Both the position numbers and the translations under genes were made by a program. From an uncultured Pseudomonadota bacterium (lineage in GTDB: Bacteria > CALINM01), in assembly GCA_964540515.1 (NCBI GenBank), contig CAZIMS010000003.1:10010-74009 (forward strand): a stretch of DNA of 64,000 bases, in the 5' to 3' direction. Positions 8,378-24,002 of the stretch are shown here, piece after piece (the first letter of the stretch is position 1; each line of letters begins with the position of its first letter). The notes beneath the pieces are model-generated. The model saw nothing but the letters and a program-made list of their open reading frames with translations. It made no database searches and was not told the origin of the DNA.

Positions 8378-8401
8378 GATATAATTATTTTGAGGGAGAA
8401 A

Positions 8402-8815
8402 ATGCTAAAAAACAAACATCTAGCCATATTAATTATTTGTATATATATAATAATTAGCGTAAAAACTCTTTATGCCCAAAATCTCAATAATTTCAAAACA
8501 ATAAAAATTAAGGTAGACGGTAGGGAACTTAATGTGGCACTTGCGGACACACCAAAAAAGAGGGAACAAGGCCTTTCTGGAACTGAACTTATTGATTTAA
8601 AAAGGAGAAACATTCAGGGAATGCTTTTTGTCTTTGAAGATGACAAAGAAAAGACATTTCAAGCATGGTATATGAGATATGATTTAATGCTATTAGTATT
8701 AGAAAAAATTAATGGATATAATTTTAGTGTAAGGCAAAGGGTTCCTTTGAGAGTGGCAACCACTGCAAAGGTATCAGGGAGATGGGTATTAGAAGTACCT
8801 ATTAAGAAAGATTAA
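8402..8815 (+). CDS. DUF192-family secreted protein
   Basis: Signal peptide, then a segment (VALADTPKKREQGLSGT...GMLFVFEDD...YMRYDL) that matches the DUF192 consensus (A.T...R..GLM.R ... GMLF.F ... M.NT..PLD). Confidence 0.55.
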   Translation: MLKNKHLAILIICIYIIISVKTLYAQNLNNFKTIKIKVDGRELNVALADTPKKREQGLSGTELIDLKRRNIQGMLFVFEDDKEKTFQAWYMRYDLMLLVLEKINGYNFSVRQRVPLRVATTAKVSGRWVLEVPIKKD

Positions 8816-8975: not shown

Positions 8976-10310
8976 ATGCTAAACAAAAAAATATTGAACT
9001 TACTTAAAAGCAAAAAGATAGCCCTCCCTTTGACAATATTTTTATTATTGTTATTTAACAGTGGTGCTTACGCTATTTCGCTGGGTAATCCTGTTATAGT
9101 ATCTGACAGTAGGTTTCAGAGTTTAGGTGGGATAGCTACAGACGGTACTAATATTTATGTTGCCGATTATGGTGCAAATAAGATCTGGAGACTTGATGCC
9201 AGCAGAGTAGTAACTCCCCTCATTAATGTGTCCAAGCCAATCTCTGTTGCCCACGATAGCGGCAAACTATATGTTATAACTGAGAATGGAGGATTTACTT
9301 ATACTACTGCAGGGGCAAATACAACACCAAATAGTTTTGGTGCAGGGGTGGTTAAGGCTTCTGACATTATAGTTGATACTACATATATTTATATAGCAGA
9401 TATTTCTGCAAAAAATGTCAAAAGATATAATAAATCAACAGGTGCTTACGTTGATGCCATTGGTGGTCCTGTTAATACATCAGCTACAGATGCGCAGAGT
9501 GGTAAATTTTACATGCCATCAGGCCTTGCGCTTTCTGGTACAAAGTTACTTGTTTCTGACTACAATAATCCGAGTAACATAAGATATACATTAGCAGCTG
9601 CAGGTGGTACTACTGCATGTATAAGTGGTGTAACGGGCGATATAGGTTATAGAGTTACTAAGCCCACAAAACTCGCTAACAAATATGATAGCAAAATTGC
9701 TCGTCAAGATAGTAGGTATTATTACTATAACTTATGTCCAAACATGACAGGCCTAAATACAGGCACCAAGCCTGATAACATTGTCCTCTGTTCTCAGACA
9801 GAACTAATTAATGGTACTTGTCCTGATTTTGGTGGATACTTAGGTTATAAATCTACTGGTGTTGTGCCAGATAGTTATGAAGGTAAGCCTAAGGGCCTTG
9901 TTCAAATATTTAATGGTACTACCTTTGACAGATCCTATGTGTTAAAAAGCTTTAAAGACGCTACTAATTTTGTGATTGCTAATTATACGCTTACAAGTCT
10001 GTGGGCTGATGGCACATATATCTATACTCTTGACTCACAGGGTATGAAAATAGATATTTACGACGATATCTCAAACACCTCTTTTGCGAAGGGGACAAAT
10101 GATGCTAATTATACTTATATACCCTTCGCTAATGATAATCTGGCCAAATCAGCACCAGCAGGTTACGGCAGATATCACAAGGCTGGAAGGAAAACTTTGC
10201 CAACAAGCTTACAAAACTCCTTAGTTATATATAGAGATCTTGTTAAAAAAGGCACAGAGCTTGTAATATCAGACACAGCTGGTAAGGTTATATACTTTCC
10301 AATTCAGTAG
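8976..10310 (+). CDS. Secreted Asn/Thr-rich beta-propeller-like protein (NHL/SMP-30-like repeats)
   Basis: Signal peptide and repeated motifs such as YVADYGANKIWRLD, KLYVITENGG and YIYIADISAKNVKRY, resembling NHL / six-bladed propeller blades. It carries about 10 N-x-S/T sequons. Confidence 0.35.
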   Translation: MLNKKILNLLKSKKIALPLTIFLLLLFNSGAYAISLGNPVIVSDSRFQSLGGIATDGTNIYVADYGANKIWRLDASRVVTPLINVSKPISVAHDSGKLYVITENGGFTYTTAGANTTPNSFGAGVVKASDIIVDTTYIYIADISAKNVKRYNKSTGAYVDAIGGPVNTSATDAQSGKFYMPSGLALSGTKLLVSDYNNPSNIRYTLAAAGGTTACISGVTGDIGYRVTKPTKLANKYDSKIARQDSRYYYYNLCPNMTGLNTGTKPDNIVLCSQTELINGTCPDFGGYLGYKSTGVVPDSYEGKPKGLVQIFNGTTFDRSYVLKSFKDATNFVIANYTLTSLWADGTYIYTLDSQGMKIDIYDDISNTSFAKGTNDANYTYIPFANDNLAKSAPAGYGRYHKAGRKTLPTSLQNSLVIYRDLVKKGTELVISDTAGKVIYFPIQ

Positions 10311-10329: not shown

Positions 10330-11106
10330 ATGAGAAGAGTTTTTGGCTTTATATTGGTGATGATTTTAATAAGCGTAAGTTTTAAGGTCTATGCAGCGAC
10401 AAAAAATGTCTCAAATACAATGCATAATTTAGCAACATGGTCTGGCAACACCATTAGATCTACAAATGTTAATGAAGTCTGCGTTTTTTGCCATACGCCT
10501 CACTCAGCGTCAGAAGTGCCATTATGGAATAGAGATACTGAGATGAGAGGCAATACTTATGTAGGCTTTATACCATACAGTACTGCTTATGCAACACAGT
10601 TTCTTTTAGGTATGGAAACACTTTTATGTATGAGTTGCCATGATGGCATTACATCTATGAGAGCCATACATAATAAACCCAATGTTTTAGGTAGCTCACC
10701 CATTACTATGACAACTGAGAATTTTACCGGTAATCCAGGTAGTTTTGCCGATATAGGTAACCCCGATGAATTCGCAAATATGTATAGTGTAAGTTTAGCA
10801 GATGCAGAGTCATATTATAGCACTGGTGGTGCAATGGTCTTTAGAGCATGGGCGGATCCAATTAGCGGTAGAGGTCTTGGTGATCATCCTATATCTATTA
10901 ACTATGACGAGGTTGTTGCAAATGCTCCATCTAAATATAGAACTAAGCCAGCAACATTAAGATTTTTTGGAGACGACAAGGATGTTTTAGAATGCACTAC
11001 CTGTCATGACCCACATGTTGATTATAATTTGGATACGAGGTATAGGCCCTTTCTTGCCTATAGCAATAGGTCTTCAGCTTTATGTTTTCAGTGCCATATA
11101 AAATAA
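10330..11106 (+). CDS. Tetraheme c-type cytochrome with a signal peptide or membrane anchor; possibly a NapC/NrfH-like electron entry module
   Basis: Four CxxCH motifs (CVFCH, CMSCH, CTTCH, CFQCH) and an N-terminal hydrophobic segment. GGAGGGGG ribosome-binding site upstream. Confidence 0.8.
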   Translation: MRRVFGFILVMILISVSFKVYAATKNVSNTMHNLATWSGNTIRSTNVNEVCVFCHTPHSASEVPLWNRDTEMRGNTYVGFIPYSTAYATQFLLGMETLLCMSCHDGITSMRAIHNKPNVLGSSPITMTTENFTGNPGSFADIGNPDEFANMYSVSLADAESYYSTGGAMVFRAWADPISGRGLGDHPISINYDEVVANAPSKYRTKPATLRFFGDDKDVLECTTCHDPHVDYNLDTRYRPFLAYSNRSSALCFQCHIK

Positions 11107-11123: not shown

Positions 11124-14100
11124 ATGAAGCACCTAAGGTTAGCAATTTTATTAATAACAATTATAATGGGTGTAATGGCTAATCAAGTCTATGCTGTTGA
11201 TCCACCACATAACACTATTGATTGTTCAACTTGTCATGGTGCAGGTAGAGTTAGCTATGGTAGGCAAGGTCTTGACCTATCAACAGTGTGTTTAGACTGT
11301 CATAGACCAGGTGGGTTAGGCAAACCTGTAGGTACAAAGCCAGCTAATCTTTATGGTGCTTTAAACTCGATTACACCATTTGGTGAAGGTACTGAACATA
11401 GCTTCTCCGGTTATGACATCAATCCATTAGCTAAAGCAACAACAAGACCTAGGGATAATGAATTTGTAGGCGCCTATGGCACAAAGTTGGCAGGAATGCT
11501 TTCTTGTAACTCCTGTCACAATCCCCACAAGCAACCAAATAATGCAGTCGGCGGCAAGTTCTTGAGGGCAAAAGGCGATAAAAGTAACGTCTGTATTAAA
11601 TGCCATAGCCCTATGAATGTTACTGTAAAAGGTGGTTTTTCTCATCCTGTTAACAGTATGGTAGGGTTAAATGAAAGCGAATATTTCACACAACCGCAAT
11701 ATACAACACTTAAATCTGTATATAAAGCAAGCAATAACAACGTGACATGTCTTGTTTGTCATAAGGTTCATTATGGGTTTTCCAATCCAACAGCAACAAG
11801 TGGCAAAGGCAATGCTAAGTTAGGGCGTGTATATACCGATGACTGGCTTTGTGCACAATGTCATAAAATGTCAGTTCATGGTAATACTAAAGGATCACCG
11901 ACAGCAACATGTATAAGCTGTCATAGTACTCATAACCCCGGTAATAATATAAAACTTGTTAGAACTCAAGTTGTTGATTCAAGAGGGAAAACAAAAGCTC
12001 TTGTTTATACAGCCAACTCATTACCAACGGATTTTTATAATAACCAGGGTACAGGACTATGTCAGGCATGTCATACTAAGACCAAATACTTTAGAAACTA
12101 TTCAGTAACTAACTATATAATTACTGGTAACTCAACTCATAATCCAGATAATAGTAAGTGTATAATCTGTCATAGCCATGAGCCCGATGAAAATTTTGTT
12201 GCACCTTTAGTAGATGAAGTGCCTAATTTTCCACGAAGGGCCTTCGGTACTTCTTCCTGTAGCGGTTGTCATGCTTTTCCACCGAATAATGGTGCACACC
12301 TAAAGCATGCAAATAGTAATACTGATTTGACTGACTGTGCAGTATGCCATATAGGAGCAACAAACTTTACAACCCAAGGCGGCCATGCAAACCACGAGAT
12401 AGGCAACCTGCTTAATCTAAACGACAGGAATAAAAGAAACTTGGCTACTTTTATTACTAAAAACTCTACAAATAAATTATTAAATACTTGTGGAGGTGGA
12501 AGCCAGCCCTGCCATAGTCAGACAGGTACAGTTCCTACATGGGGTAGTACTTCGCTTTCTTGCGACGCCTGTCATGGTAATCCGCCATCAACAGGCAATC
12601 ATGTAGTGCATTCAGTGACTAATTCAATGCTCTGTACAGATTGTCACTACAACGTGACTAACAACACTGCTACCTTTAGACCCCATGCCTCAGCCTTAAG
12701 TACAGCAGGCCTTACTGATGAACAGGCATACAAAAAGAAGGCATGGGATATAACTTACACTTATGATATAAAGGTAGATGACAGAAATAGAAATAATGGG
12801 TTTAGTACCTATAGCTCTTATAACAAATCTTGTTCAAATATAGTATGTCATGACCCAAGTAATATAAACAAGAGAGCAAGATGGAATATTGATTCACCAA
12901 CATGTAATTTGTGCCATGGTAGCAATGCAACTAATATGACTACGGGCTCACATAGCCAACATTTAAATGCATCTGCTACTTTTGGTATTGCTATAACATG
13001 TAGTAGCTGTCATACAAATGTTGGACCTACTGCATATAACCATTTTATGTCAACACTTAATGCAATAGAGTTAGTAGGTCTTAATTATACAGGAGGTTTA
13101 GTCCCTGGCGATAACAGCTTTGGTTCCTGTGGTACAAACGCATGTCATAATAATGGTAGAGGTGGTGCTCCTATAAATAATACATACACTTGGGGTGTTA
13201 CACCTCCAGGTGACCAATGTGCAATCTGTCACGCAATGCCACCAGACACACCATATGTCGATGCCACATACTCTAAACACAAAGTGCATTGGATTAGCTA
13301 TATTCCAAACATTAGTCCTAAACTAACCCCTCAATGTACAATGTGTCATACTGCAGGTAATGCCTCTACACACATTAACAGCGCAGTAAACATGTTATAT
13401 GGTGGTAGTAATTACATTACAACATTTAGCTTTGGTGCCAACGTTAATGACCCAACTGATGATACCTGTCAGGCAACCTGTCATTCAAGCCCAACCTCAA
13501 ATCTTGTCTGGTCCGCAAGCAAACCAACAAGCTGTGATGCCTGCCATGGTTTCCCTGGATCTGCGACAAACCCACTAAATACAGGTAAACATCATAAACA
13601 CCATGTAGATAGTGATACTGACTATACAGAATGCGGTCAGTGCCATCCAAATGTAGAAGGTTATACAACAGCATTATCGGGCAAGCATGGTGATGGTACA
13701 AAAGATACTGGCCCTGGTGGTAACTCAAAAGTATCAAGCTGGATTAAAGCCACAGAATCTTGTACAAACAATTGTCATACAGTTGCAAATAACCTTTGGA
13801 AGGCAACCCAAAAAAATACAGCAGATCCTCTACAGTGTTACAACTGTCACGGCAACCCCCCAACTACAGGCAAACATACAGCCCATGTAACAAATAGCTC
13901 AATTGCCTGTGTAGCCTGTCATTTTGGTGCTAACACAACACCACATACCCCTCTTACACACAACGATGTTACTGGCACTGCTTCTAACGATGGCGATTTT
14001 CTATACAAGAAAGCTGTTGGTTGGAACTCGGCAGTTTATACAAGAACTATAGAAGTCGACGACAGATTATACAATAACGGCACTACCCCAACATGGGCAT

Positions 14101-15911
14101 CAGGTAGCTGTTCTACTAAGAAATGTCACAATCCTTCACCATCTGCAACTTATAGTGCAAACTGGACAAGTGGCGCTAATTCATGTACTCTATGTCATGG
14201 ATATATTGGAGCAACAACAGGTTTATCAACTGGTCACAATGCCCATGTGACAGCAAACACCAACTTTGGAATAAATATTACATGTACTAACTGCCATAGC
14301 AATAATGCTGGTAATTACAGGCACTTTATGGTTGGTGGTGTACCACGTGGGTATGTAGACTTTTCTGGAGCTGTTTTCTTTAGATATACAACAGCTGATA
14401 GAACTATACCAGGTACAAGAAACACTGGTTATTGTACAACTAATGTATGTCACAATGATGGACGAGGTGTAAGCTATCCAGCAGTGTCATCAAAAATACA
14501 TTGGGGAACTACACTTCCTAATAATGATCCTAACGTAGCGTGTAACATTTGTCATAAGTTTCAGATAAATACGAGAAGACATTTTGACCACTTCTCAACG
14601 GTAAGTACTGCTAAATATGGTCCAAGGTTACAGTTTACAACAGCTAACTGTAATCAGTGCCATAGCTTACAAACAAACTCAACACATATTAATACAGTTG
14701 TTAACTTTAGAGATGGTGGCGCTAACTTATCAACTACAAAATCTTGTAACAACTGTCATACCTCTGTGAATGCTCAGAGAGCAAAAGGTTACTGGTTATA
14801 CAGCTCAACGACGAGCTTTTTAAGATGTCAGACTTGTCATTTAACAACAGCTGGAACACCTGCATATAGCAAATACACAAGCTCAATTGCCGGAGGTGTG
14901 TACGCACCAGCATTTCCAGCCTATGCAACGCTAGGTCACGGAAGACCAACTGCATCTGGTAATTATGCTTCAGGTAATCCTCCTGCAAATCAGACATTAT
15001 GTACGAATTGTCATGGTATTACATCTTGGGGAAGTGGTGGAAGACATATAACCAATACAGCTAATGATTTCAAAAGATTGATACTATCTACTACAAATGC
15101 ACAATGTAATTACTGTCATGGAGCAAATCAGCCTGGCTTTGCAACTAAGAGCGGTATAGTATCTCATAAAGGTACAGTAAGATTTTCTTTCCCAGAACTT
15201 TCATGTGGTGAATGTCATGAGTTACACGGTGGTAGCACTAATAAACCTGTAAACAGTAACATAATGATGATCAGAGCCACAAATGCAACATACTATGCTC
15301 CATCCGCTACTGTAGTATTTACATCGCGGACCTTTGGCACTGATTCTTTTGACGAGGCTGAAAGTCCCTTTACTTCGGGATCTTCTAATAATGATGATAT
15401 CTGTGCGACTTGCCATGTAAATACTTACCACAATAGCAGGACCAAAGATGGTAAACATGGATCAGGAAACAATGGCACAGACTATGGCAACAGTCAGAGC
15501 TGTATAAACTGCCATAGCCATAAAAACTTCTTTACACCAGCTGGTTGCAATGGCTGTCACGGTACAGATGGGCCTGATGGTGCACCAAGAACATCTGGAG
15601 GCTCAAAATACTCAGGCAGCTATGGTGCCCATGCTATACATCTGGATCTTATATTCCCAAGAGTTGGAGTAACAACTAATAAATGTGATAAATGTCACGG
15701 GGCTGGTGCTACAGCAGGCACACACACTGGACATAATCAGGGTAATGGTAATGTTTTAAGATCTAACGTAACATTAAATGTAAGCACTGAATACGCCTTC
15801 AAGGGTACAAACCCAAGTTACGTTATGAGCACTGAGCCACAGTATGCCTATTGTGCAAGCACTAACTGTCATTTTGGACCATCTCCAAAATGGAAGTGCT
15901 TACCATACTAA
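11124..15911 (+). CDS. Giant secreted multiheme c-type cytochrome, 1595 aa, about 34 canonical plus about 8 variant heme sites
   Basis: Signal peptide MKHLRLAILLITIIMGVMANQVYA. I counted 34 CxxCH motifs and further Cx3CH, Cx4CH and Cx6CH sites (CSNIVCH, CGTNACH, CQATCH, CTNNCH, CSTKKCH, CTTNVCH, CASTNCH, CGGGSQPCH), often paired with a following CxxCHG-PP-xG-H module. The protein is extremely rich in Asn, Thr, Ser and Gly. Confidence 0.93.
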   Translation: MKHLRLAILLITIIMGVMANQVYAVDPPHNTIDCSTCHGAGRVSYGRQGLDLSTVCLDCHRPGGLGKPVGTKPANLYGALNSITPFGEGTEHSFSGYDINPLAKATTRPRDNEFVGAYGTKLAGMLSCNSCHNPHKQPNNAVGGKFLRAKGDKSNVCIKCHSPMNVTVKGGFSHPVNSMVGLNESEYFTQPQYTTLKSVYKASNNNVTCLVCHKVHYGFSNPTATSGKGNAKLGRVYTDDWLCAQCHKMSVHGNTKGSPTATCISCHSTHNPGNNIKLVRTQVVDSRGKTKALVYTANSLPTDFYNNQGTGLCQACHTKTKYFRNYSVTNYIITGNSTHNPDNSKCIICHSHEPDENFVAPLVDEVPNFPRRAFGTSSCSGCHAFPPNNGAHLKHANSNTDLTDCAVCHIGATNFTTQGGHANHEIGNLLNLNDRNKRNLATFITKNSTNKLLNTCGGGSQPCHSQTGTVPTWGSTSLSCDACHGNPPSTGNHVVHSVTNSMLCTDCHYNVTNNTATFRPHASALSTAGLTDEQAYKKKAWDITYTYDIKVDDRNRNNGFSTYSSYNKSCSNIVCHDPSNINKRARWNIDSPTCNLCHGSNATNMTTGSHSQHLNASATFGIAITCSSCHTNVGPTAYNHFMSTLNAIELVGLNYTGGLVPGDNSFGSCGTNACHNNGRGGAPINNTYTWGVTPPGDQCAICHAMPPDTPYVDATYSKHKVHWISYIPNISPKLTPQCTMCHTAGNASTHINSAVNMLYGGSNYITTFSFGANVNDPTDDTCQATCHSSPTSNLVWSASKPTSCDACHGFPGSATNPLNTGKHHKHHVDSDTDYTECGQCHPNVEGYTTALSGKHGDGTKDTGPGGNSKVSSWIKATESCTNNCHTVANNLWKATQKNTADPLQCYNCHGNPPTTGKHTAHVTNSSIACVACHFGANTTPHTPLTHNDVTGTASNDGDFLYKKAVGWNSAVYTRTIEVDDRLYNNGTTPTWASGSCSTKKCHNPSPSATYSANWTSGANSCTLCHGYIGATTGLSTGHNAHVTANTNFGINITCTNCHSNNAGNYRHFMVGGVPRGYVDFSGAVFFRYTTADRTIPGTRNTGYCTTNVCHNDGRGVSYPAVSSKIHWGTTLPNNDPNVACNICHKFQINTRRHFDHFSTVSTAKYGPRLQFTTANCNQCHSLQTNSTHINTVVNFRDGGANLSTTKSCNNCHTSVNAQRAKGYWLYSSTTSFLRCQTCHLTTAGTPAYSKYTSSIAGGVYAPAFPAYATLGHGRPTASGNYASGNPPANQTLCTNCHGITSWGSGGRHITNTANDFKRLILSTTNAQCNYCHGANQPGFATKSGIVSHKGTVRFSFPELSCGECHELHGGSTNKPVNSNIMMIRATNATYYAPSATVVFTSRTFGTDSFDEAESPFTSGSSNNDDICATCHVNTYHNSRTKDGKHGSGNNGTDYGNSQSCINCHSHKNFFTPAGCNGCHGTDGPDGAPRTSGGSKYSGSYGAHAIHLDLIFPRVGVTTNKCDKCHGAGATAGTHTGHNQGNGNVLRSNVTLNVSTEYAFKGTNPSYVMSTEPQYAYCASTNCHFGPSPKWKCLPY

Positions 15912-15968
15912 GCTGTAAAAGGGGTGATAAATATGAAGATATATAGCTTAATAAAAAGGAAGGTAAAT

Positions 15969-18900
15969 ATGAAAAAGATAGCATTAACATTCATATTGAT
16001 GCTACTTGTACCTGTAATTGCACAAGCTGCTGTTACAGTAGCAGACGTTGTTAAACATATTCCCACAGATGTGTCAGTGCAAGCAGGTGCATCAACTACA
16101 GACCTCAACAGAAATGTTATCACCCTTTCATATAGCTTAAGGTCAGATCAAACTAATGATGTGTTAACTAGTATTACAATTGATGATACTGGAACCCTTG
16201 CTGCAGGTGAGGCAGATCTTAAGGTTTATGTTAACCCTATGGGTAGAAATAGTACAAGGGGCGCCTTTCTTGTGGTAAACCAGCCATCTTGGAGTGCTGC
16301 GAGTGGGACTATAAACTTTTCGAGGAACATTGCACTTACACAAAATGTTAAAGCTTTTGTATTTATTGTATATGATTTAAGAAGCACCGCTGCAGGTAGA
16401 ACAATTCAGACATCAGTATCGTCCATGGGGCTTGCTGCTGGTAGTGGTAGTGGTACAAGCGTTCCTATAAACCAAACTTCAAATTTAAATAATGTAGTTG
16501 CAAAGACCGCATGTTATGATGATGTAAAGCTTAATCAATGTGGTATGTGTCACAACTATCAGGGCTATTACCAGATGTTTTATCCCCATTCATCAGCTAC
16601 ATCAAGAAAGGGGCATGAAAAACATGTTGGCCTTAATAGATTTGAATGCTTTATCTGCCATAACAATGCAAATAGATATCATACAAGGTATACCAGTGTA
16701 GCGCCACAACACATGAATAATGCTATTAACGTAGGCCCTAAGATTTGGGACAATGTATCTTCTGCCGGTGGATTAGGTGTTGGACATGGCAGTTACAATA
16801 GTTCAACAAGAGTATGTTCAAACGTATATTGTCATTCTAATGGTGCTGGCACGAGGGTTAACTCTCCTGCTTGGGGAACAAAGGCATCAGGCTGTACAGT
16901 ATGCCATGGGACACCACCAAACACAGGAGCACATAATGCCCACTGGACAAGGATAACAGGCCTTACTTCTCCAGGAGATTGTGGTATATGTCATAGGGAT
17001 GGTGGAACAGGCACCTTTCATCATGCCGATGGTCATGTAGATGTGTTATTCGATCCCGCCTATAACGACAGAAACTTAACAGCCACTTACAATACTGGTG
17101 CAAAGACATGCTCTAATGTAAGTTGTCATGGTGGTGTAACAACCCCAGCCTGGAATTCTGCTACAGGTGCATATAGACAGACAGTTACAGGTGCTGCTTT
17201 CACTTCAGAAAACAATACATGGTTAAGATGTGAGATGTGTCATGTAGTTGATAACATAACATCAGGACAAGAAACCAATGTTTCCAGATGGAATAGTGCA
17301 AGGTCTGGTAAACACAACGCCCATGCTGTGACAGGCCTTGCAAGTATGAGGGCATACACAGGTATAGTTAATGGTGTTAACTTTGGAAGAAAAAGAATGA
17401 GGGTATCAGTATGTTATGTCTGCCACAACAATGCACATTTTGATGGCACAGCAAATGATTATCGCTGGACAAAGGCCAGTATTTCCGATTACCATTTTTC
17501 CATTAACCCAGGTGGCACTAACAATACAATAGGTGGTAGCGCACAAAGAGGTGGTGGAACTGTAGGAGCAAATATATTTGATACTTATGTTGATAACTCA
17601 ACAACTGCTATAGCACTAAATACTTCACCGACTCAAAATGTCTTTTATATGAGGTCAACAGCTGATATATATCAATCTGGTACCTGTAACAACACAGACT
17701 GCCATGGTGGTGGTACATGGAGTTATGTGGCTACATTAGACTGTACTACATGTCATAGTAAGGTGATAAGGGGTAGAACAGCAAATGTAATTGCTGAGTT
17801 TAGTATGCCATCTCGCCATGTTCAGGGTGTAGCGGTTAACTCTCATCATTGTTACAGATGCCATTGGGAGGCTGACAATAATGCTGGAACAATAGTTAAA
17901 AACGCTTTATACCATGGTGATAATAAAGCACAGTTAGTTATCTATGATTCAACTAACAATGCGAGACCAACAACAGCAAATAGCGCAACCTTAACTGTCT
18001 TTAACAGAGCTACATCTGCAACTAGTTTGCGGGTTAATGCCCACTGTTTAGGCTGCCATAATGAAGGTGGAAAGGGAAAAGCAATCTTTCCAGGTGATAC
18101 AAGAACAACAAACCAGTATGCTTGGGATGGAAGCTCAATACAGGCGAGATATATGGCATATAGACGTTACTCGTCACATGTGTATAACGCAGTAACCTAC
18201 AACGTAGTTCCAAATAAAATTAAAACTTCTAGCTCACACTACTATATGAACCAGCATCAAAGAGGTGTTGCTGTTGGTGCAGCATGGTCAGATGACCAGA
18301 GCACGATTTTAGCAGCAGGCACCTTTGATGCCCAGGGAAGGCAGGGTTCTGTTGGTTGTTTAGACTGTCATAACTCACACGGCTCTAACATACCTTTTGG
18401 TACCTTTGGCTATACATCTTACAGCTCCTTTACTGGTAAACACAGGGGTGGTATATTAAAACAGACATGGGCAAATACTCATGGCTATGGTGATAATTAT
18501 ACACCGACTGAAAGAAATCTTAACGTTACTGGTGGTTTATGGGCAATATGGAGCGCCCAAGCAGCACTATGCTTTGACTGTCATTTAGGTCCTGATAAGG
18601 CCATTACAGCATATTTGGGATCAACCTATTCAAGCTGGTCTTCAGTAACTACTTTGCCACCAGATAGTAGGGGAGTAAGAAGAAACTACATTAGCTATGG
18701 TAGAAACGCTGGTAATATCATTGCAGGTTACTATGATCCTATAAATTATGAAGCTGCAATAACTAACAGAGCATCGATACACGGTAGAGGTAGATGGTAT
18801 ATAGATTTAAACACCGCAAATACTACCTATGGTAATAATGGCTATAGTTATGTACAAAATCAGAGAAACAATAGTGCAGCCTTCTGGTTTGGTGAGTTTA

Positions 18901-20264
18901 GTTATAAAAGAGGTACTATAATTGGTACCCATTTTAAAAAATACGATGGTGCCTACGTACAAGGTTATACTCCAAGAGACTGGAAAAATAGTGCTAATTC
19001 TGGTAATACTAGATCAGATCTAAGGGGTATGTGCACGCCATGTCATGATCCTCATGGAGTTAATGCCCTAAATGGAAGTCCCTACTTGGCAAATATAAGG
19101 TATTACTCTCCACAGCTTAAAGGTATGTGGCTAACAGGTTTATATTATGAAGACAGACCTGGAAATAGAGATACTTCTGCTAATTCCGAGGGCACTTACG
19201 CAGTTGTTAATACTTTTAGTACCAATACTCTTACTAATACGAGAGTAGCTCCAAGAATGGTTCCTACAAAAAGACTAAGCAGACCTAAACAAACAGGTAA
19301 TGGATATGGTTTTGGTTTGAATGACGGATTAGGTCAAGATGGTTTCTTTATTGATGATAATACCTTCGGCGTAACAATAAATAATGGTACTACTGCTGTT
19401 GAGTTGTTTAGTAATAATAATTATAATCTTGTGCATCAAAACTACTGGTTTGATAACTGGACTAATGGTCAAGTACATCCATTTCGTACAGGAGGGTCAG
19501 TTACTGTGAATATGATTTCGGAGAGTGAAAGTCAGTTTGCAGGTTTGTGCCTTGGTTGTCATCCAAAAAGCGTTTTAGTAAATACGCTATCATCTCATAA
19601 CAATAGAAGAGCGTCATTTCAAACGCATGCCCATAAAACAGTAAAAGGCTGGGCTGCAACGGCAAATTCGCCTGCAAATGCTGATATAGTACCAAACTAT
19701 TATATCAACAGAGCTTCTAACGCCGCAGGCTTAACGAACGCTTATACAACGACTAATAATTTTGGAAATATTTCAATGTCACCACTTCTATTGTATGCTA
19801 ATGGTGGTACTGCTGGAATAAGAGGATTAGATGCTCCTAATGTGCAGGTAGGTATTCACTTTTACTGGGGCTTACATTTACCAAAGCAGGCTGATACAAA
19901 CGCAAGCAACAATATACAGGTACAATATCATAACTTCCCATGCTCAAAGTGCCACACAGTTCACACCTCAAGGCTACCAAGACTTATGAAAACTAACTGT
20001 TTAGATGTAAGGCAGTCAAAAGATGTTGCAAATAACTGGGCATCAGGTAGTAATTTATTTAGACAGAAATTTGCAGAAGGTAATAATAACTGGTACATTA
20101 GAATGATTTATACAGGCACAAACAATAGTCCAGGAACATCAGGGACTACAGCAAATCTTCTCATCTGGAATCCAGCCAGAGCCGTTAGATGCCATAATAG
20201 TCCACTTGTTATGGATAACGTTAATCAAACCAGATGGAATGATGTAACTCCATGGGGTAATTAA
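15969..20264 (+). CDS. Giant secreted multiheme c-type cytochrome, about 1430 aa, about 17 heme sites
   Basis: Preferred start is MKKIALTFILMLLVPVIAQA (signal peptide, AAGGAAGG ribosome-binding site); the ORF track begins at a GTG at 15924. It has 14 CxxCH and 3 Cx4CH (CSNVYCH, CSNVSCH, CNNTDCH) motifs and an approximately 190-aa heme-free N-terminal domain. Confidence 0.9.
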   Translation: MKKIALTFILMLLVPVIAQAAVTVADVVKHIPTDVSVQAGASTTDLNRNVITLSYSLRSDQTNDVLTSITIDDTGTLAAGEADLKVYVNPMGRNSTRGAFLVVNQPSWSAASGTINFSRNIALTQNVKAFVFIVYDLRSTAAGRTIQTSVSSMGLAAGSGSGTSVPINQTSNLNNVVAKTACYDDVKLNQCGMCHNYQGYYQMFYPHSSATSRKGHEKHVGLNRFECFICHNNANRYHTRYTSVAPQHMNNAINVGPKIWDNVSSAGGLGVGHGSYNSSTRVCSNVYCHSNGAGTRVNSPAWGTKASGCTVCHGTPPNTGAHNAHWTRITGLTSPGDCGICHRDGGTGTFHHADGHVDVLFDPAYNDRNLTATYNTGAKTCSNVSCHGGVTTPAWNSATGAYRQTVTGAAFTSENNTWLRCEMCHVVDNITSGQETNVSRWNSARSGKHNAHAVTGLASMRAYTGIVNGVNFGRKRMRVSVCYVCHNNAHFDGTANDYRWTKASISDYHFSINPGGTNNTIGGSAQRGGGTVGANIFDTYVDNSTTAIALNTSPTQNVFYMRSTADIYQSGTCNNTDCHGGGTWSYVATLDCTTCHSKVIRGRTANVIAEFSMPSRHVQGVAVNSHHCYRCHWEADNNAGTIVKNALYHGDNKAQLVIYDSTNNARPTTANSATLTVFNRATSATSLRVNAHCLGCHNEGGKGKAIFPGDTRTTNQYAWDGSSIQARYMAYRRYSSHVYNAVTYNVVPNKIKTSSSHYYMNQHQRGVAVGAAWSDDQSTILAAGTFDAQGRQGSVGCLDCHNSHGSNIPFGTFGYTSYSSFTGKHRGGILKQTWANTHGYGDNYTPTERNLNVTGGLWAIWSAQAALCFDCHLGPDKAITAYLGSTYSSWSSVTTLPPDSRGVRRNYISYGRNAGNIIAGYYDPINYEAAITNRASIHGRGRWYIDLNTANTTYGNNGYSYVQNQRNNSAAFWFGEFSYKRGTIIGTHFKKYDGAYVQGYTPRDWKNSANSGNTRSDLRGMCTPCHDPHGVNALNGSPYLANIRYYSPQLKGMWLTGLYYEDRPGNRDTSANSEGTYAVVNTFSTNTLTNTRVAPRMVPTKRLSRPKQTGNGYGFGLNDGLGQDGFFIDDNTFGVTINNGTTAVELFSNNNYNLVHQNYWFDNWTNGQVHPFRTGGSVTVNMISESESQFAGLCLGCHPKSVLVNTLSSHNNRRASFQTHAHKTVKGWAATANSPANADIVPNYYINRASNAAGLTNAYTTTNNFGNISMSPLLLYANGGTAGIRGLDAPNVQVGIHFYWGLHLPKQADTNASNNIQVQYHNFPCSKCHTVHTSRLPRLMKTNCLDVRQSKDVANNWASGSNLFRQKFAEGNNNWYIRMIYTGTNNSPGTSGTTANLLIWNPARAVRCHNSPLVMDNVNQTRWNDVTPWGN

Positions 20265-20373: not shown

Positions 20374-20404
20374 AAAAGGGCGTAAATTATACGCCCTTTT
20401 TTTA
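20374..20404 (+). terminator. Rho-independent terminator ending the cytochrome operon
   Basis: Stem GGGCGTA / TACGCCC with loop AATTA, followed by T8. Confidence 0.75.
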
Positions 20405-20564: not shown

Positions 20565-20882
20565 TTGGAACCAATCTGGAAGAGATTTAAAATAGAAAAG
20601 GTGTATCTATACGGAAGTTTTGCTGATATGACCTTTTCGGCTCATTCAGACATTGATATTGCCGTATATCCCGATGTTGATTATAAGGTGTTTTCAAAGC
20701 TTTTTCATTATGTGAACAGACCTTTTAGACGGACGGTGGACCTGCGTTTATTGAGTGAGCTGCCCTTTCGTCAAAATGTGGAAAAAGAAGGAATTTTGAT
20801 TTATGAAAGAAAGGCTCGTCATATTAAAAAGTGTGATTGCTGTAGATCAAAAAAAACTGGACAAGCTTTTTACAAAAATTGA
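20565..20882 (+). CDS. Nucleotidyltransferase (MNT, HI0073-like) antitoxin-type protein; the N-terminus may be disrupted by a frameshift
   Basis: The GSFADMTFSAHSDIDIAV motif is the minimal nucleotidyltransferase G-S-x(9-13)-DxD signature. The ORF begins at a TTG, and upstream ORF 20443-20559 in another frame joins it across an A8 tract. Confidence 0.6.
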   Translation: MEPIWKRFKIEKVYLYGSFADMTFSAHSDIDIAVYPDVDYKVFSKLFHYVNRPFRRTVDLRLLSELPFRQNVEKEGILIYERKARHIKKCDCCRSKKTGQAFYKN

Positions 20883-20925
20883 AAGAGCTTATTTATCCTT
20901 TTTACAGTCAGGGTAATATGCTAAA

Positions 20926-21386: not shown

Positions 21387-24002
21387 ATGAATGAGAGAAA
21401 GATTACTAATTATCTATTGTTAGTCTTTACACTATCGTCATTTATCTTAAGACTTATACCATGGAAATACACTATAATTGATGGTGGTAAATGGGTACTA
21501 TTTGTACAACCCGATGCCTATTACCATTTAAGAAGAGCAACTATTTGGGCACAGAATTTTCCTAAAATTTTTACTCTTGATTATTATATGGCATATCCAT
21601 TTGGTGCTGAGTGTCCTTGGCCGCCACTTTATGATTGGCTTATTGCTGTTGTGACGATTATTTTAGGAGGCGGAAAATATAATGTTAATATATTACAGAT
21701 TGTAACAGCATTATTCCCACCGATCTTAGCGGCATTATGTATTTATCCCGTTTATAAAGTTGTTTTTTTGATATGGAAAAGCAATAGAGTAGCTTTAATA
21801 GCTGCCTTTTTTGCTATCTTGATGCCAGGTATGCTTAGTTATTCAACCATAGCTTCTGGTGATCATCATATAGCAGAAACCTTGATAGGACTTTGTTTTT
21901 ATTATTATGCATTAAAAATTGTAGATGCTGCAGAGGATAAAGGGATATCTAATAAAGATGTTTCTTTAACTGCAATATTTATAATAATAGGACTGTTAGT
22001 ATGGCAAGGAGAGGTAGTTTTCTTTACAATTTTTGCTATTTATCTTTTTATCCTTTTTTTAAAAATGAGAAATAACTTTGAATTTATAAAAAAGGTCTCG
22101 AAGGCATTTTTGATATCCTCAATAATTAGTTCATCTTTTTTGGCATTAATAAGATTCATTATTCCAGGAGGAACTCATCTAAGTCTTTTTAATTTTGGTT
22201 ATTTTTCATACTTTCAACCCTTATACATGCTGTTTTTATATTTAGGAGTCTTTTTATTTGGAAGGTTAATATTCATTTATATGAAAAACAAAAAAATTTT
22301 TTTAATATCACTTTTAAGCACAGCTATTTTTATATTAACCACTTTAATTATTATCAAACCCTTAAGAGTTGGAGTTTGGGAAGGTATAAACTTCCTTTTC
22401 AAAACTGATCCATGGCATGCAAGTATAAATGAGTTTCAAAGTACCTTTACTTTGAATTTTCTAAAAAGTAGCTTAGAAAGCTTTGAAGGATGGACTAATA
22501 TTATTTATTTTTTATCATTTTTACTTCCTTTTACATATTCTGTATTTTTTATTTATAAATGGCTTAAAAATAAAAAAATAAGCTATCTATTTGTTACAGA
22601 ACTACAAATTAAACCATCAAAAAGTAATAACTTCATTATCAATAGTGAGCACTTTAAATATAATAACTCAGATATTTTGAAAAGATTTTTCGAAAAAAAT
22701 AAAAATAAAACTTTATTTTTTATTGTAGTCGCCATTGCTTTTTTTCTTTTAGCACTATATCAAAAGAGATGGACCAACTCTTATAGTCCAATTCTTGCTA
22801 TTGGGCTTAGTTTGTTTGCTAACAATATATATATAAGAGTTAAAAAAGGACATTTTTTAATAAGAGAGTTTTTTCATTGGAGGTCAAAAAAGCTTAAAGA
22901 TAGTCCTGGTCTATTAACAAGAATCATTTTTTTGTGGGAAAAATCGCCATTAATACTCTCTTTAATAATAATAATTCTTTTCTTATTCCCCTATTATATA
23001 ATAGCTCAAGGTATATTGTTAAGAAAAGGCTATCCCATAGAGTCAGATCTGTATAATAGCTTACAATGGATGAGATTATATACTCCAAAAACAAGCTATC
23101 TCTATAAACCAAATGAAAAACCAGAATATGGTGTACTCGCCACTTGGGATATGGGACACTTTATACAATACATAGCAGAAAGACCTGCAATCGTAAATAA
23201 TTTTGGTCATCAGCTACCGGGAGATGGCTTTAAAACATCTATATATGTATGGAGTTGTGATAGTGAAGATGAGCTCACATCTATTTTAGATAAATACCAG
23301 GTAAGATATTTAATCCTGTCAGATCCAATTGTTTACTTTAATGATAATGTTAAAGCTTATACAAAGGAAGGTTTTCTTGAAAAAGCAATACAGTTTGAAA
23401 AAATTCATTACAATATACAAGTACCAGTTCCTACAGAAGAGTTTTTTCGACTACCATTGGCAAATACATGGTTATTTGATGGGAGTGCGAACAATTATAA
23501 AAGTGCTACAAAAAGGCTAAGGTTAGTCTTTGAGTCTCAAAATCCAACACCTTTTCAGTATTTCGAAGGGTTAGAAACTAAAAAAATTAAGATATTTGAA
23601 TATGTTAAAGGTGTAAAGGTTAAAGGAAAAACAAAACCAAAAGATATTATATACATAAGTGCAGATTTTATTACTAATTTTGATAGAGGCTTTAGATGGG
23701 AAGCTGCAGCTATAGCTGATGAAAATGGTAACTTTACCGCCTATTTGCCCTACGCAACAGCAGAAGATAACCTTTTTGTTAAACCATTATCTCCCTATTA
23801 TTTTTATAGCTCCCAAAAAGAAATCAAAGTATATACAACTAATAGTGAGGTAGAAAATGGTGTCGAAAAAAGCGTTGATATGAATTCGGGTGAAAATATC
23901 CCAGAGTTTAAAAGGGATGAGATAAGACAAAAGCTAATTGGCTTAGCAGGTCAGGTAAGGTCTAAAAATTTTATGAAGTTACATAGGAAGATTAATGAAT
24001 AG
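21387..24002 (+). CDS. STT3/AglB/PglB-like oligosaccharyltransferase homolog (GT-C), 871 aa, divergent
   Basis: About 13 N-terminal transmembrane helices. The first loop has QPDAYYHLRRA...YYMAYPFGAECPWPPLYD, compared with Stt3 DPWFNYRA...WYPLGR...YPGLM. The motif ATWDMGHF sits where WWDYG lies in Stt3/PglB, followed by an approximately 300-aa C-terminal soluble domain. Confidence 0.55.
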   Translation: MNERKITNYLLLVFTLSSFILRLIPWKYTIIDGGKWVLFVQPDAYYHLRRATIWAQNFPKIFTLDYYMAYPFGAECPWPPLYDWLIAVVTIILGGGKYNVNILQIVTALFPPILAALCIYPVYKVVFLIWKSNRVALIAAFFAILMPGMLSYSTIASGDHHIAETLIGLCFYYYALKIVDAAEDKGISNKDVSLTAIFIIIGLLVWQGEVVFFTIFAIYLFILFLKMRNNFEFIKKVSKAFLISSIISSSFLALIRFIIPGGTHLSLFNFGYFSYFQPLYMLFLYLGVFLFGRLIFIYMKNKKIFLISLLSTAIFILTTLIIIKPLRVGVWEGINFLFKTDPWHASINEFQSTFTLNFLKSSLESFEGWTNIIYFLSFLLPFTYSVFFIYKWLKNKKISYLFVTELQIKPSKSNNFIINSEHFKYNNSDILKRFFEKNKNKTLFFIVVAIAFFLLALYQKRWTNSYSPILAIGLSLFANNIYIRVKKGHFLIREFFHWRSKKLKDSPGLLTRIIFLWEKSPLILSLIIIILFLFPYYIIAQGILLRKGYPIESDLYNSLQWMRLYTPKTSYLYKPNEKPEYGVLATWDMGHFIQYIAERPAIVNNFGHQLPGDGFKTSIYVWSCDSEDELTSILDKYQVRYLILSDPIVYFNDNVKAYTKEGFLEKAIQFEKIHYNIQVPVPTEEFFRLPLANTWLFDGSANNYKSATKRLRLVFESQNPTPFQYFEGLETKKIKIFEYVKGVKVKGKTKPKDIIYISADFITNFDRGFRWEAAAIADENGNFTAYLPYATAEDNLFVKPLSPYYFYSSQKEIKVYTTNSEVENGVEKSVDMNSGENIPEFKRDEIRQKLIGLAGQVRSKNFMKLHRKINE

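What the first reader, a model, noticed from the sequence alone, without database searches (positions are those of the whole stretch)
11124..20264. Two giant multiheme c-type cytochromes with paired Cx3-4CH / CxxCHG modules
The 1595-aa protein has about 34 CxxCH motifs plus about 8 heme sites with longer spacing (Cx3CH, Cx4CH, Cx6CH); the approximately 1430-aa protein has 14 plus 3. A repeat unit of C-x4-CH followed by CxxCHG-PP-xG-H-x-H (for example CSTKKCHN...CTLCHGYIGATTGLSTGHNAHV) recurs many times. This recalls the Geobacter-type paired-motif extracellular cytochromes. A heme complement this large in a single polypeptide suggests an extracellular electron conduit or nanowire-like function. 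The tetraheme protein at 10330-11106 could be its membrane-side electron donor.
Basis: seen in the sequence. Interest (0 to 1): 0.75.

Follow-up and report, generated by a model that had tools for sequence, protein, structure and literature searches.

The report
Giant cytochromes in an OmcE-nanowire locus
The two huge haem proteins are real (42 and 17 haem sites), belong to a known Geobacter-type family, and sit directly after a close relative of OmcE, a protein shown elsewhere to polymerise into conductive filaments outside the cell, so the region looks like a full "cytochrome nanowire" gene set in an uncultured bacterium.

Summary
ORF 11124-15911 (1595 aa) has 34 CxxCH, 2 Cx3CH, 5 Cx4CH and 1 Cx6CH. 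ORF 15969-20264 (1431 aa) has 14 CxxCH and 3 Cx4CH. Shuffled sequences give fewer than 1. Both proteins pass the curated cut-off of NCBIfam TIGR01904 (CxxxxCH/CxxCH domain cytochrome), so the family assignment is right.

The reading of the neighbouring tetrahaem protein (10330-11106) as a membrane-side donor is not supported. It is an OmcE homologue: E=1e-22 to PDB 7TFS and 7e-21 to 9YUQ, both solved nanowire filaments. It has the four CxxCH motifs plus four further invariant histidines.

The four genes (NHL propeller, OmcE-like subunit, 42-haem protein, 17-haem protein) lie close together. They are followed by a terminator-like hairpin and then a roughly 33-kb protein-glycosylation island. 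The order propeller, OmcE-like, giant cytochrome recurs in 9 of 9 loci examined, including Geopsychrobacter and Geothermobacter. This matches the published description of omcE clusters.

Differences from that description: no outer-membrane beta-barrel in the window, one propeller that is not a lipoprotein, and archaeal-type STT3/AglB transferases. The roles of the two giants are inferred, not shown. Verdict: new members of a known kind, moderately interesting.

The parts
8390..8815 (+). DUF192 (COG1430) small secreted protein. It is a peripheral, possibly associated gene.
   Evidence: Pfam PF02643 at 29 bits. A DUF192-like gene sits directly upstream of the NHL gene in L003 and L088. Small unannotated genes sit at the same place in L001 and L089.
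8976..10310 (+). Protein A, 444 aa: NHL-type beta-propeller with a Sec (SPase I) signal peptide and no lipobox.
   Evidence: Pfam NHL at 23 bits. The N-terminus reads ...FNSGAYA/ISLG, with no Cys before residue 215. An NHL/SGL/FG-GAP propeller gene lies immediately upstream of the OmcE-like gene in 9/9 loci. NHL domains are fused to relatives of C in P0024 and P0047.
10330..11106 (+). Protein B, 258 aa: OmcE-family tetrahaem cytochrome, the putative polymerising nanowire subunit.
   Evidence: phmmer against PDB gives 7tfs_A E=1.3e-22 and 9yuq_N E=7.1e-21. 7TFS is the OmcE filament (PMC12954529). 9YUQ is the D. soudanensis OmcE nanowire (bioRxiv 10.1101/2025.10.22.684050). In a 114-sequence alignment the four CxxCH motifs (51, 100, 222, 252) and H32, H58, H186, H229 are invariant. 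For the AF2 model (pLDDT 64), the only significant Foldseek PDB hit is 7TFS, E=4e-5, prob 1.00.
11124..15911 (+). Protein C, 1595 aa, about 175 kDa before haem: 42-haem cytochrome. It has a signal peptide and a mature N-terminus VDPPH. An N-terminal paired-CXXCH region is followed by eight triheme CxxxxCH/CxxCH-type modules (about 346-1200). A c7/MtrC-domain-like region spans about 1200-1530, and a terminal Cx4CH is followed by SPKWKCLPY.
   Evidence: TIGR01904 scores 68 bits with 6 stretches. Pfam gives Cytochrome_C7 111 bits, MtrC/MtrF II-IV domain 97 bits and c3_2 84 bits. There are 92 His for 42 haems, enough for bis-His ligation. Orthologues of 82%, 82% and 53% identity keep every haem motif.
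15969..20264 (+). Protein D, 1431 aa (alternative starts at 15924 GTG and 15933 ATG): 17-haem cytochrome. It has a signal peptide and a Cys-free N-terminal domain (about 25-180). Three CxxxxCH/CxxCH modules span about 190-500. A six-haem domain (about 565-890) follows, then a haem-sparse C-terminal domain (about 930-1431, 3 CxxCH) ending in WNDVTPW.
   Evidence: TIGR01904 scores 46 bits with 3 stretches. Only nine full-length relatives were found (43-84% identity), with every haem motif invariant. A profile of the C-terminal 887 aa finds 508 representatives, of which 199 reach E<=1e-30. These mostly match the 565-890 domain inside other large cytochromes. The C-terminal tail is shared with the second giant cytochrome of the Geopsychrobacter-like locus (36% identity over 114 aa).
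20374..20400 (+). Terminator-like hairpin plus T-run, 110 nt after the stop of D. It is the probable end of the A-B-C-D transcription unit.
   Evidence: An 11-bp stem (5 GC pairs) followed by TTTATTGATT. The gaps A-B and B-C are 19 and 17 nt, and C-D is 12-57 nt depending on the start used.
21387..24002 (+). Archaeal-type STT3/AglB oligosaccharyltransferase, 871 aa. It is the first gene of a roughly 33-kb glycosylation island (21387-54602) that follows the cytochrome genes.
   Evidence: Pfam AglB_L1 52 bits and AglB_core-like 49 bits. TIGR04154 scores 332 bits, below its cut-off of 450. An STT3 gene follows the D orthologue directly in L001 and lies two genes further on in L003. The rest of the island holds GT2 genes, PMT_2/TPR proteins, methyltransferases, a carbamoyltransferase and B12-radical SAM genes.

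Best explanation
The two giant cytochromes are the two accessory multihaem cytochromes of an OmcE-type cytochrome-nanowire locus. The host is an uncultured, low-GC, delta-proteobacterium-like organism.

The four closely spaced genes encode, in order:
1. A secreted NHL beta-propeller (A).
2. An OmcE-family tetrahaem subunit (B).
3. A 42-haem CxxxxCH/CxxCH cytochrome (C).
4. A 17-haem cytochrome of the same family (D).

Shown here: the haem-site counts, the family membership of B, C and D, Sec signal peptides on all four, the conserved gene order, and the adjacent glycosylation island.

Inferred mechanism:
- All four proteins are exported by Sec and loaded with haem in the periplasm.
- B polymerises into a filament with an insulated haem chain, as OmcE does.
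- C, built from about eight triheme modules plus c7/MtrC-like modules, folds into a long single-chain haem wire. If the spacing matches the roughly 13 Angstrom per haem predicted for 27-haem relatives, it would be several tens of nm long. It would carry electrons from periplasmic or inner-membrane donors to the base of the filament, or along the cell surface.
- D supplies a second, shorter haem chain. It is attached to a large haem-poor C-terminal domain that acts as an anchor, docking or substrate-contact module.
- The propeller assists assembly or anchoring.
- The downstream glycosyltransferases decorate the exposed proteins.
For: - Motif counts and chance control.
- TIGR01904 above cut-off for C and D.
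- MtrC/MtrF-domain and c7 hits in C.
- B resembles the OmcE filament subunits 7TFS and 9YUQ by sequence, by invariant ligand histidines and by fold.
- Identity of 7TFS and 9YUQ: PMC12954529 and bioRxiv 10.1101/2025.10.22.684050.
- That preprint states that omcE clusters always hold two multihaem cytochromes, beta-propeller proteins, the OmcE subunit and a beta-barrel. It adds that the commoner form is followed by 15-70 glycosyltransferase (GT2/4/39), methyltransferase, sugar-modification and TPR genes. The window has GT2, PMT_2 (GT39-like)/TPR, methyltransferase and sugar-modification genes directly downstream.
- The order propeller, OmcE-like, giant cytochrome occurs in 9/9 loci: the window, L001, L003, L084, L085, L086, L088, L089 and L090.
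- B is 31% identical to the Geopsychrobacter-like OmcE-like protein (E 1e-33). D shares modules and the C-terminal tail with that locus's second giant.
- NHL-cytochrome fusions P0024 and P0047.
- 27-haem relatives are predicted to be about 350 Angstrom wires with Fe-Fe distances below 15 Angstrom (PMC11492766).
- Short intergenic gaps and a terminator-like hairpin after D.
Against: - No outer-membrane beta-barrel is present in the 64-kb window or within 10 kb of the relatives' loci. The published omcE clusters have one.
- There is only one propeller, and it is not a lipoprotein.
- Nothing here shows that B polymerises, that C or D leave the periplasm, or that they contact B.
- N-x-S/T sequons are not enriched beyond composition in C (z=-0.5) or D (z=-0.2). 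The glycosylation link therefore rests on adjacency alone.
- The structure model of the C-terminal part of D failed (pLDDT 26.6), and no model of C was made. The wire geometry is borrowed from published predictions for relatives.
- No solved structure resembles C or D by sequence.
Confidence: 0.68

Rival explanations
1. C and D form a self-sufficient extracellular conduit or nanowire, and the tetrahaem protein B feeds them from the membrane side.
For: B is small, sits directly upstream and has four haems. C and D have signal peptides and many haems.
Against: B has a cleavable signal peptide and no membrane helix. It does not match NapC/NirT (Pfam Cytochrom_NNT is absent from its hits). It is homologous to the extracellular OmcE filament subunit.
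Confidence: 0.07
2. C and D are periplasmic proteins. They would act as a trans-periplasmic wire or an electron-storage capacitor and never cross the outer membrane. Their link to the OmcE-like filament would be only that they supply it with electrons.
For: No porin, lipobox or recognisable secretion signal lies next to them. The Desulfuromonadia survey notes many periplasmic wire-like cytochromes and suggests electron storage for high-haem proteins (PMC11492766).
Against: A 42-haem chain at the spacing predicted for relatives would be far longer than a periplasm. C carries MtrC/MtrF-type domains, which are known from surface cytochromes. Relatives of this family are predicted to be extracellular (PMC11492766). 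None of this is decisive.
Confidence: 0.2
3. The genes encode a porin-cytochrome (Mtr/Pcc-type) outer-membrane conduit.
For: There are weak hits to the DmsE/MtrA decahaem family (TIGR03508, 55 bits in C). There are also MtrC/MtrF domain hits.
Against: TIGR03508 is far below its cut-off of 192 bits. No beta-barrel gene was found anywhere in the window or in the flanks of the relatives. No cytochrome here is a lipoprotein.
Confidence: 0.05
4. D is not mainly a wire. Its haem-poor C-terminal 500-870 residues would form a catalytic or substrate-binding domain, for example a surface reductase or oxidase for a mineral, metal or sulfur compound. The N-terminal modules would feed it electrons.
For: Haem density drops from 1 per 38 aa in C to about 1 per 110-170 aa in D after residue 700. 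This region is the most conserved part of D. It has long invariant blocks, two extra invariant Cys and an invariant R-C-H. The domain recurs at the C-terminus of other large cytochromes.
Against: There is no match to any enzyme family in Pfam, NCBIfam or PDB. No CxxCK or other known catalytic haem motif was seen. The model was too poor to search by fold.
Confidence: 0.15

Closest known systems
CxxxxCH/CxxCH domain c-type cytochromes (NCBIfam TIGR01904 / Pfam PF09698) of Desulfuromonadia. Examples are the roughly 2700-aa proteins of Geopsychrobacter electrodiphilus and Geothermobacter (P0010, P0012, P0015) and the 24+3-motif, roughly 1000-aa proteins of Geotalea and Geomonas (P0042, P0033).
   Same: - The same module (long-spaced motif, then CxxCH-G-x-PP...H-x-x-H, then a third CxxCH), with scores above the curated cut-off.
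- Signal peptide followed by an x-P-P-H mature N-terminus in many members.
- The same gene neighbours.
- 26-30% identity over about 80% of C.
   Different: - The host is not a Desulfuromonadale. Its DnaK is 88% identical to one uncultured 'Deltaproteobacteria' MAG and at most 76% to anything else, and the window's GC is 27-41%.
- C is shorter (42 motifs against 70-75).
- C ends in SPKWKCLPY rather than CHTQLPK.
OmcE cytochrome nanowire and the omcE gene cluster of Geobacter and Desulfuromonas (PDB 7TFS, 9YUQ; bioRxiv 10.1101/2025.10.22.684050).
   Same: - B has the OmcE sequence signature, ligand histidines and fold.
- The cluster holds a beta-propeller gene and two multihaem cytochromes.
- It is followed by a large island of glycosyltransferase, methyltransferase and TPR genes.
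   Different: - No large beta-barrel gene.
- One propeller rather than two, and it is not a lipoprotein.
- The island includes two archaeal-type STT3/AglB transferases, which that paper does not mention (one search found no 'oligosaccharyl').
- The lineage appears to lie outside Desulfuromonadia. Its phylum was not determined here.
OmcS nanowire and its osc (omcS companion) operon in G. sulfurreducens.
   Same: It has the same logic of a polymerising cytochrome encoded with dedicated folding, secretion and morphology factors (PMC13194489).
   Different: B is tetrahaem and OmcE-like, not hexahaem and OmcS-like. Homology of A, C or D to Osc proteins could not be tested here because no sequences were available.
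GSU1996 dodecahaem 'nanowire' cytochrome (concatenated c7 modules).
   Same: Both use a single polypeptide built by repeating small multihaem modules. C scores 111 bits on Pfam Cytochrome_C7.
   Different: A sequence search of PDB with C, or with its profile, does not retrieve it. The modules of C are triheme with a long-spaced first motif. C has 42 haems, not 12.
MtrCAB / Pcc porin-cytochrome conduits.
   Same: C has MtrC/MtrF domain II/IV-like stretches (97 bits), and the presumed role in extracellular electron transfer is shared.
   Different: There is no porin, no MtrA/DmsE-type decahaem (TIGR03508 at 55 bits against a cut-off of 192) and no lipoprotein cytochrome.

Membership tests
CxxxxCH/CxxCH domain c-type cytochrome (TIGR01904 / PF09698) | The score against the curated family model reaches the trusted cut-off. 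| tested here: met
   TIGR01904 scores 68.0 bits for C and 46.0 bits for D, against a cut-off of 27. PF09698 scores 29.0 for D, above the cut-off of 21.7, but 19.9 for C, just below it.
CxxxxCH/CxxCH domain c-type cytochrome (TIGR01904 / PF09698) | Repeated pairs of a long-spaced haem motif followed by a canonical CxxCH. | tested here: met
   There are 7 such pairs in C and 3 in D at spacings of 19-40 aa. The family model finds 6 and 3 stretches. The internal repeats align at E 1e-27 to 1e-34.
CxxxxCH/CxxCH domain c-type cytochrome (TIGR01904 / PF09698) | Covalent haem is actually attached at the long-spaced motifs. | not testable with these tools
   This needs mass spectrometry or haem staining of the protein.
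OmcE-family nanowire subunit (protein B) | Sequence homology to the OmcE subunits of solved filaments. | tested here: met
   7tfs_A E=1.3e-22 and 9yuq_N E=7.1e-21, with the alignment covering both halves of B.
OmcE-family nanowire subunit (protein B) | Four CxxCH motifs plus four further conserved haem-ligand histidines. | tested here: met
   C51/C54/H55, C100/C103/H104, C222/C225/H226, C252/C255/H256 and H32, H58, H186, H229 are invariant in 114 sequences. This matches the description in bioRxiv 10.1101/2025.10.22.684050.
OmcE-family nanowire subunit (protein B) | OmcE fold. | tested here: inconclusive
   The only significant Foldseek PDB hit is 7TFS (E=4e-5, prob 1.00). However, TM is only 0.37-0.44 and the haem-free model has a mean pLDDT of 64.
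OmcE-family nanowire subunit (protein B) | Polymerises into an extracellular filament with inter-subunit histidine ligation. | not testable with these tools
   This needs cryo-EM of appendages, or at least a multimer model with haems.
omcE-type gene cluster (as described in bioRxiv 10.1101/2025.10.22.684050) | Two multihaem cytochromes encoded beside the OmcE gene. | tested here: met
   C and D lie directly downstream of B. The same holds in L001, L003, L084 and L086.
omcE-type gene cluster (as described in bioRxiv 10.1101/2025.10.22.684050) | Two beta-propeller lipoproteins. | tested here: not met
   There is one NHL propeller gene (A). Its signal peptide has no lipobox Cys. A 714-aa lipoprotein of unknown fold lies at 25765-27909.
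omcE-type gene cluster (as described in bioRxiv 10.1101/2025.10.22.684050) | A large outer-membrane beta-barrel gene in the cluster. | tested here: not met
   No porin or beta-barrel family hit was found in any of the 49 ORFs of the window. None was found in the 10-kb flanks of L084, L085 or L086. The rest of the 188-kb contig was not available.
omcE-type gene cluster (as described in bioRxiv 10.1101/2025.10.22.684050) | Followed by 15-70 genes for glycosyltransferases (GT2/4/39), sugar modification, methyltransferases and TPR proteins (the commoner form). | tested here: met
   Region 21387-54602 holds 4 GT2 genes, six PMT_2-like/TPR membrane proteins and 2 STT3/AglB genes. It also holds a C-methyltransferase, other methyltransferases, a GDP-mannose-dehydratase-like gene, a carbamoyltransferase and 2 B12-radical SAM genes.
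Porin-cytochrome conduit (MtrCAB / Pcc) | A porin gene plus a periplasmic MtrA/DmsE-type decahaem plus a lipoprotein surface cytochrome. | tested here: not met
   There is no porin. TIGR03508 scores 55 bits against a cut-off of 192. No lipobox is present on B, C or D.
   B has a cleavable signal (VYA/AT). PF03264 is not among its hits.

The most novel reading that the evidence does not exclude
A bacterial lineage outside the Desulfuromonadia builds an OmcE-type nanowire without a dedicated porin. In this reading the 42-haem and 17-haem single-chain wires act as the covalently concatenated base or adaptor that plugs into the filament. The whole surface assembly would be N-glycosylated by archaeal-type AglB/STT3 transferases encoded next door. 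The N-x-S site at N246 of B, conserved 19/19 in this clade, would be one target. That would make it a glycosylated, modular 'wire-on-a-wire' system and a rare case of AglB-type N-glycosylation of a bacterial respiratory protein.
Probability: 0.15. Interest if true: 0.72.

Novelty: new member of a known kind. Interest (0 to 1): 0.45.

Why it matters
Cytochrome nanowires are known structurally from a handful of organisms. How they are fed with electrons, anchored and exported is an open question (PMC12307469).

This locus shows that giant CxxxxCH/CxxCH cytochromes are constant neighbours of OmcE-like subunits, together with an NHL propeller. The association holds from Desulfuromonadales to a distant uncultured lineage. 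That singles the giants out as candidates for the missing link between the cell and the filament.

It also gives a compact four-gene set, without a porin, that could be tested by heterologous expression. The adjacency of archaeal-type oligosaccharyltransferases offers a concrete hypothesis for the glycan-like densities seen on Geobacter OmcE.

For the first-stage scan the lesson is practical. The large haem count is real but ordinary for this family. The informative gene was the small one beside it.

Tried and rejected
1. AlphaFold2 of the C-terminal 887 aa of D with a 7-sequence alignment gave mean pLDDT 26.6. It was unusable and no fold search was run.
2. Scanning one genome per species (GTDB) for C found 20 pattern hits but no true relative. 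The organism was placed through DnaK instead.
3. N-glycosylation sequon enrichment: C z=-0.5 and D z=-0.2, B none, A z=+2.4. This gives no support beyond the N/S/T-rich composition.
4. The hematite-binding-like [ST]P[ST] motif was found 5 times in C against 3.5 expected, and 2 times in D against 1.5. It is not enriched.
5. Sequence and profile searches of PDB with C and D found nothing below E=0.1.
6. I tested whether C or D contains a whole OmcE-like unit that could dock into the filament. The OmcE-family profile matches only a 45-aa paired-CXXCH stretch of C (118-162, 26.8 bits) and nothing convincing in D. The idea is neither supported nor excluded.
7. The tRNA and Rfam scans of the window found nothing.
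8. Sigma-70-like promoter matches are no more frequent than in shuffles (43 against 48).
9. The OmcE structure paper (PMC9357133) and the osc-operon paper (Shen et al. 2025) are not in the held library. The Geobacter cluster composition is therefore cited from the 2025 preprint only.
10. Horizontal transfer was considered as the cause of the 40% GC of the cytochrome genes against 27-30% downstream. It was not pursued, because the Cys/His/Gly/Ala/Thr-rich composition may explain it.

Full report
**Observation.**
- The window carries two long same-strand ORFs at the stated coordinates.
- C (11124-15911, 1595 aa) has 34 CxxCH, 2 Cx3CH, 5 Cx4CH and 1 Cx6CH, giving 42 motifs.
- D (15924-20264) has 14 CxxCH and 3 Cx4CH, giving 17 motifs.
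- D most likely starts at the ATG at 15969, behind an AAGGAAGG ribosome-binding site. That gives the 1431-aa protein found in public annotation.
- In C, 84 of 85 cysteines lie in these motifs. In D, 34 of 37 do.
- Shuffled sequences give on average 0.25 and 0.04 CxxCH.
- C has 92 histidines for 42 haems, so bis-His ligation throughout is possible.
- All motifs are invariant in orthologues down to 53-56% identity for C and 43-47% for D. The sites are therefore under selection.

**Repeat structure.**
- Each long-spaced motif in C, except the last, is followed 22-36 residues later by a CxxCH. This CxxCH is usually continued by G/A-x-PP...G-H-x-x-H.
- A third CxxCH follows 24-39 residues after that. 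The unit is therefore triheme and about 100 aa long. It occurs eight times between about 346 and 1200.
- A higher-order duplication of about 430 aa is evident: 401-769 against 833-1207, 31-34% identity, E down to 1e-34.
- The last third of C matches Pfam Cytochrome_C7 (111 bits) and the MtrC/MtrF domain II/IV model (97 bits).
- D has a Cys-free N-terminal domain and three CxxxxCH/CxxCH modules. A six-haem domain follows, then a roughly 500-aa region with only three haem sites.

**Family.**
- NCBIfam TIGR01904 (CxxxxCH/CxxCH domain c-type cytochrome) scores 68 bits on C and 46 bits on D, against a cut-off of 27.
- Relatives of C are 82%, 82% and 53% identical proteins of the same length. There is also a 2734-aa version (41% identity over half of C).
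- More distant relatives are the roughly 2700-aa cytochromes of Geopsychrobacter and Geothermobacter and the 24+3-motif, roughly 1000-aa proteins of Geotalea and Geomonas.
- The 2734-aa homologue contains a 349-aa exact internal duplicate. Length in this family changes by module duplication.
- A survey of Desulfuromonadia reports up to 87 motifs per polypeptide. It predicts 27-haem relatives to be about 350 Angstrom wires (PMC11492766). 42 haems is therefore large but not unusual for the family.
- No solved structure resembles C or D by sequence or profile.

**The small neighbour is the key.**
- Protein B (10330-11106, 258 aa, four CxxCH) matches two PDB chains strongly: 7tfs_A (E=1.3e-22) and 9yuq_N (E=7e-21).
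- 7TFS is the Geobacter sulfurreducens OmcE nanowire (PMC12954529). 9YUQ is the Desulfuromonas soudanensis OmcE nanowire bundle (bioRxiv 10.1101/2025.10.22.684050).
- In an alignment of 114 homologues, the four CxxCH motifs and four further histidines (H32, H58, H186, H229) are invariant. This is the signature that the preprint gives for OmcE homologues.
- An AlphaFold2 model (pLDDT 64) has 7TFS as its only significant PDB fold match: E=4e-5, prob 1.00, TM 0.37-0.44.
- B has a cleavable signal peptide, no anchor and no NapC/NirT match.

**Gene context.**
- A (8976-10310) is a secreted NHL-type propeller.
- The gaps A-B and B-C are 19 and 17 nt, and C-D is at most 57 nt. A strong terminator-like hairpin follows D.
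- Downstream, after an inserted MNT/HepT toxin-antitoxin pair, lies a roughly 33-kb island. It holds:
  - two archaeal-type STT3/AglB transferases,
  - four GT2 genes,
  - six PMT_2-like/TPR membrane proteins,
  - methyltransferases,
  - a carbamoyltransferase,
  - sugar-modification genes,
  - B12-radical SAM genes.
- The preprint describes omcE clusters as always encoding two multihaem cytochromes, two beta-propeller lipoproteins, OmcE and a large beta-barrel. In the commoner form, 15-70 glycosylation-type genes follow. The window fits this closely.
- The order propeller, OmcE-like, giant cytochrome is found in all nine loci I could inspect. These include Geopsychrobacter-like, Geothermobacter and other Desulfuromonadales-type loci, where a sensor kinase and a sigma-54 regulator sit upstream.
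- D shares its modules and its extreme C-terminal tail (QYH-x-FPCSKCH...RLPRLM-x-TNCLD...WN-x-VTPW) with the second giant cytochrome of the Geopsychrobacter-like locus.
- NHL domains occur fused to relatives of C (P0024, P0047).

**Organism.**
- The window is part of a 188-kb NCBI contig.
- Its DnaK is 88% identical to one uncultured 'Deltaproteobacteria' MAG. That MAG has its own NHL, OmcE-like and 1753-aa cytochrome locus (L085).
- DnaK is no more than 76% identical to anything else among species representatives.
- GC is 27-41%.
- The host is therefore not a Desulfuromonadale.

**Mechanism (inferred).**
- All four proteins are exported by Sec and matured in the periplasm.
- B polymerises into an OmcE-like filament.
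- C forms a long single-chain haem wire linking periplasmic donors to the filament or the surface.
- D adds a shorter chain joined to a conserved haem-poor domain for anchoring, docking or substrate contact.
- The propeller helps assembly.
- The island glycosylates the exposed parts.
- The family assignments, motif conservation and synteny are shown. Localisation, polymerisation, contacts and glycosylation are not.

**Points against.**
- No beta-barrel gene is in the window or the flanks of the relatives.
- There is only one propeller, and it is not a lipoprotein.
- Sequons are not enriched beyond composition in C or D.
- The only structure attempt on D failed.

**D beyond its small clade.**
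- The word-indexed search found only nine full-length relatives.
- An exhaustive profile search with the C-terminal 887 aa found 508 representatives. Most match the 565-890 hexahaem domain inside other large cytochromes. Fewer match the last roughly 480 aa.
- Sampled members carry only generic cytochrome Pfam hits and 'hypothetical' names.
- This domain is uncharacterised, and it is the least understood part of the locus.

**Verdict.**
The family guess is correct.
- The functional picture needs re-centring on the OmcE-like gene.
- The proteins are new members of a known family in a known type of cluster, with some variant features: no porin, archaeal-type oligosaccharyltransferases and a distant host.
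- Interest is moderate.

Noticed in passing
window 20565-21288: A nucleotidyltransferase (MNT/Polbeta) and HepT-like toxin-antitoxin pair sits between cytochrome D and the STT3 gene. In the 82%-identical locus L001 the STT3 gene follows the D orthologue directly. The pair therefore looks like a recent insertion.
   Followed up: partly
window 21387-54602: A roughly 33-kb protein-glycosylation island. It holds two archaeal-type STT3/AglB genes (TIGR04154, 332 and 174 bits, below the cut-off of 450) and four GT2 genes. It also has six paralogous multi-pass membrane proteins with an N-terminal V-W-D-D motif, a PMT_2-like core and C-terminal TPRs. A carbamoyltransferase, a C-methyltransferase and two B12-radical SAM genes complete it. 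GC is only 27-30%, against 35-41% for the genes upstream of it.
   Followed up: partly
window 11065-11073 (B residues N246-S248): An N-x-S sequon just before the last haem motif of the OmcE-like protein. It is conserved in 19/19 members of the near clade (46% identity or more) but in only 6/95 of the remaining homologues, which have N-x-G-S there. It is a possible N-glycosylation site matching the adjacent STT3 genes.
   Followed up: partly
window 20220-20264 and 15879-15911; P0093-P0122: The extreme C-termini are conserved. D, its family and many other large cytochromes end in W-N-x-[VI]-T-[PG]-W. C ends in SPKWKCLPY, which carries its only non-haem cysteine. The 2700-aa Desulfuromonadales homologues end in CHTQLPK. 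These may be sorting, docking or capping signals.
   Followed up: no
L003 10001-18205 (P0004): The 2734-aa homologue of C holds a 349-aa exact internal duplicate at an offset of 741 aa. Two 74%-identical orthologues from independent assemblies show the same offset. Haem-module number therefore expands by recent tandem duplication.
   Followed up: partly
window 8914-8929: TGGCAT-N5-TTGA, a partial sigma-54 (-24/-12) match, lies upstream of the NHL gene. In L084, L086 and L090 a sensor kinase and a sigma-54-dependent response regulator sit directly upstream of the equivalent gene.
   Followed up: no
L085 10001-23133: In the closest related MAG the C-like cytochrome (1753 aa) ends with the D-type tail (NWKTPW). 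It is followed not by a D orthologue but by a 2625-aa fn3/DUF2341 protein. This suggests that modules are shuffled between the two giants.
   Followed up: no
L002, L088, L089: Public contigs repeatedly end inside or just before the giant cytochrome genes, presumably because the internal repeats break assemblies. Surveys based on short contigs will undercount these proteins.
   Followed up: no
window 25765-27909: A 714-aa predicted lipoprotein (signal ...FIFSC) with no family match in Pfam or NCBIfam. It is conserved next to the STT3-GT2 genes in L001. It might be the missing second propeller-like component, or it might belong to the glycosylation machinery.
   Followed up: partly
window 59806-60822 and 42397-45342: An actin-like ALP_N / archaeal-MreB-like_C protein, and a 981-aa protein joining a multi-pass (weak MFS match) region to a spermine-synthase-like domain. 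Both are unusual, and both appear unrelated to the finding.
   Followed up: no
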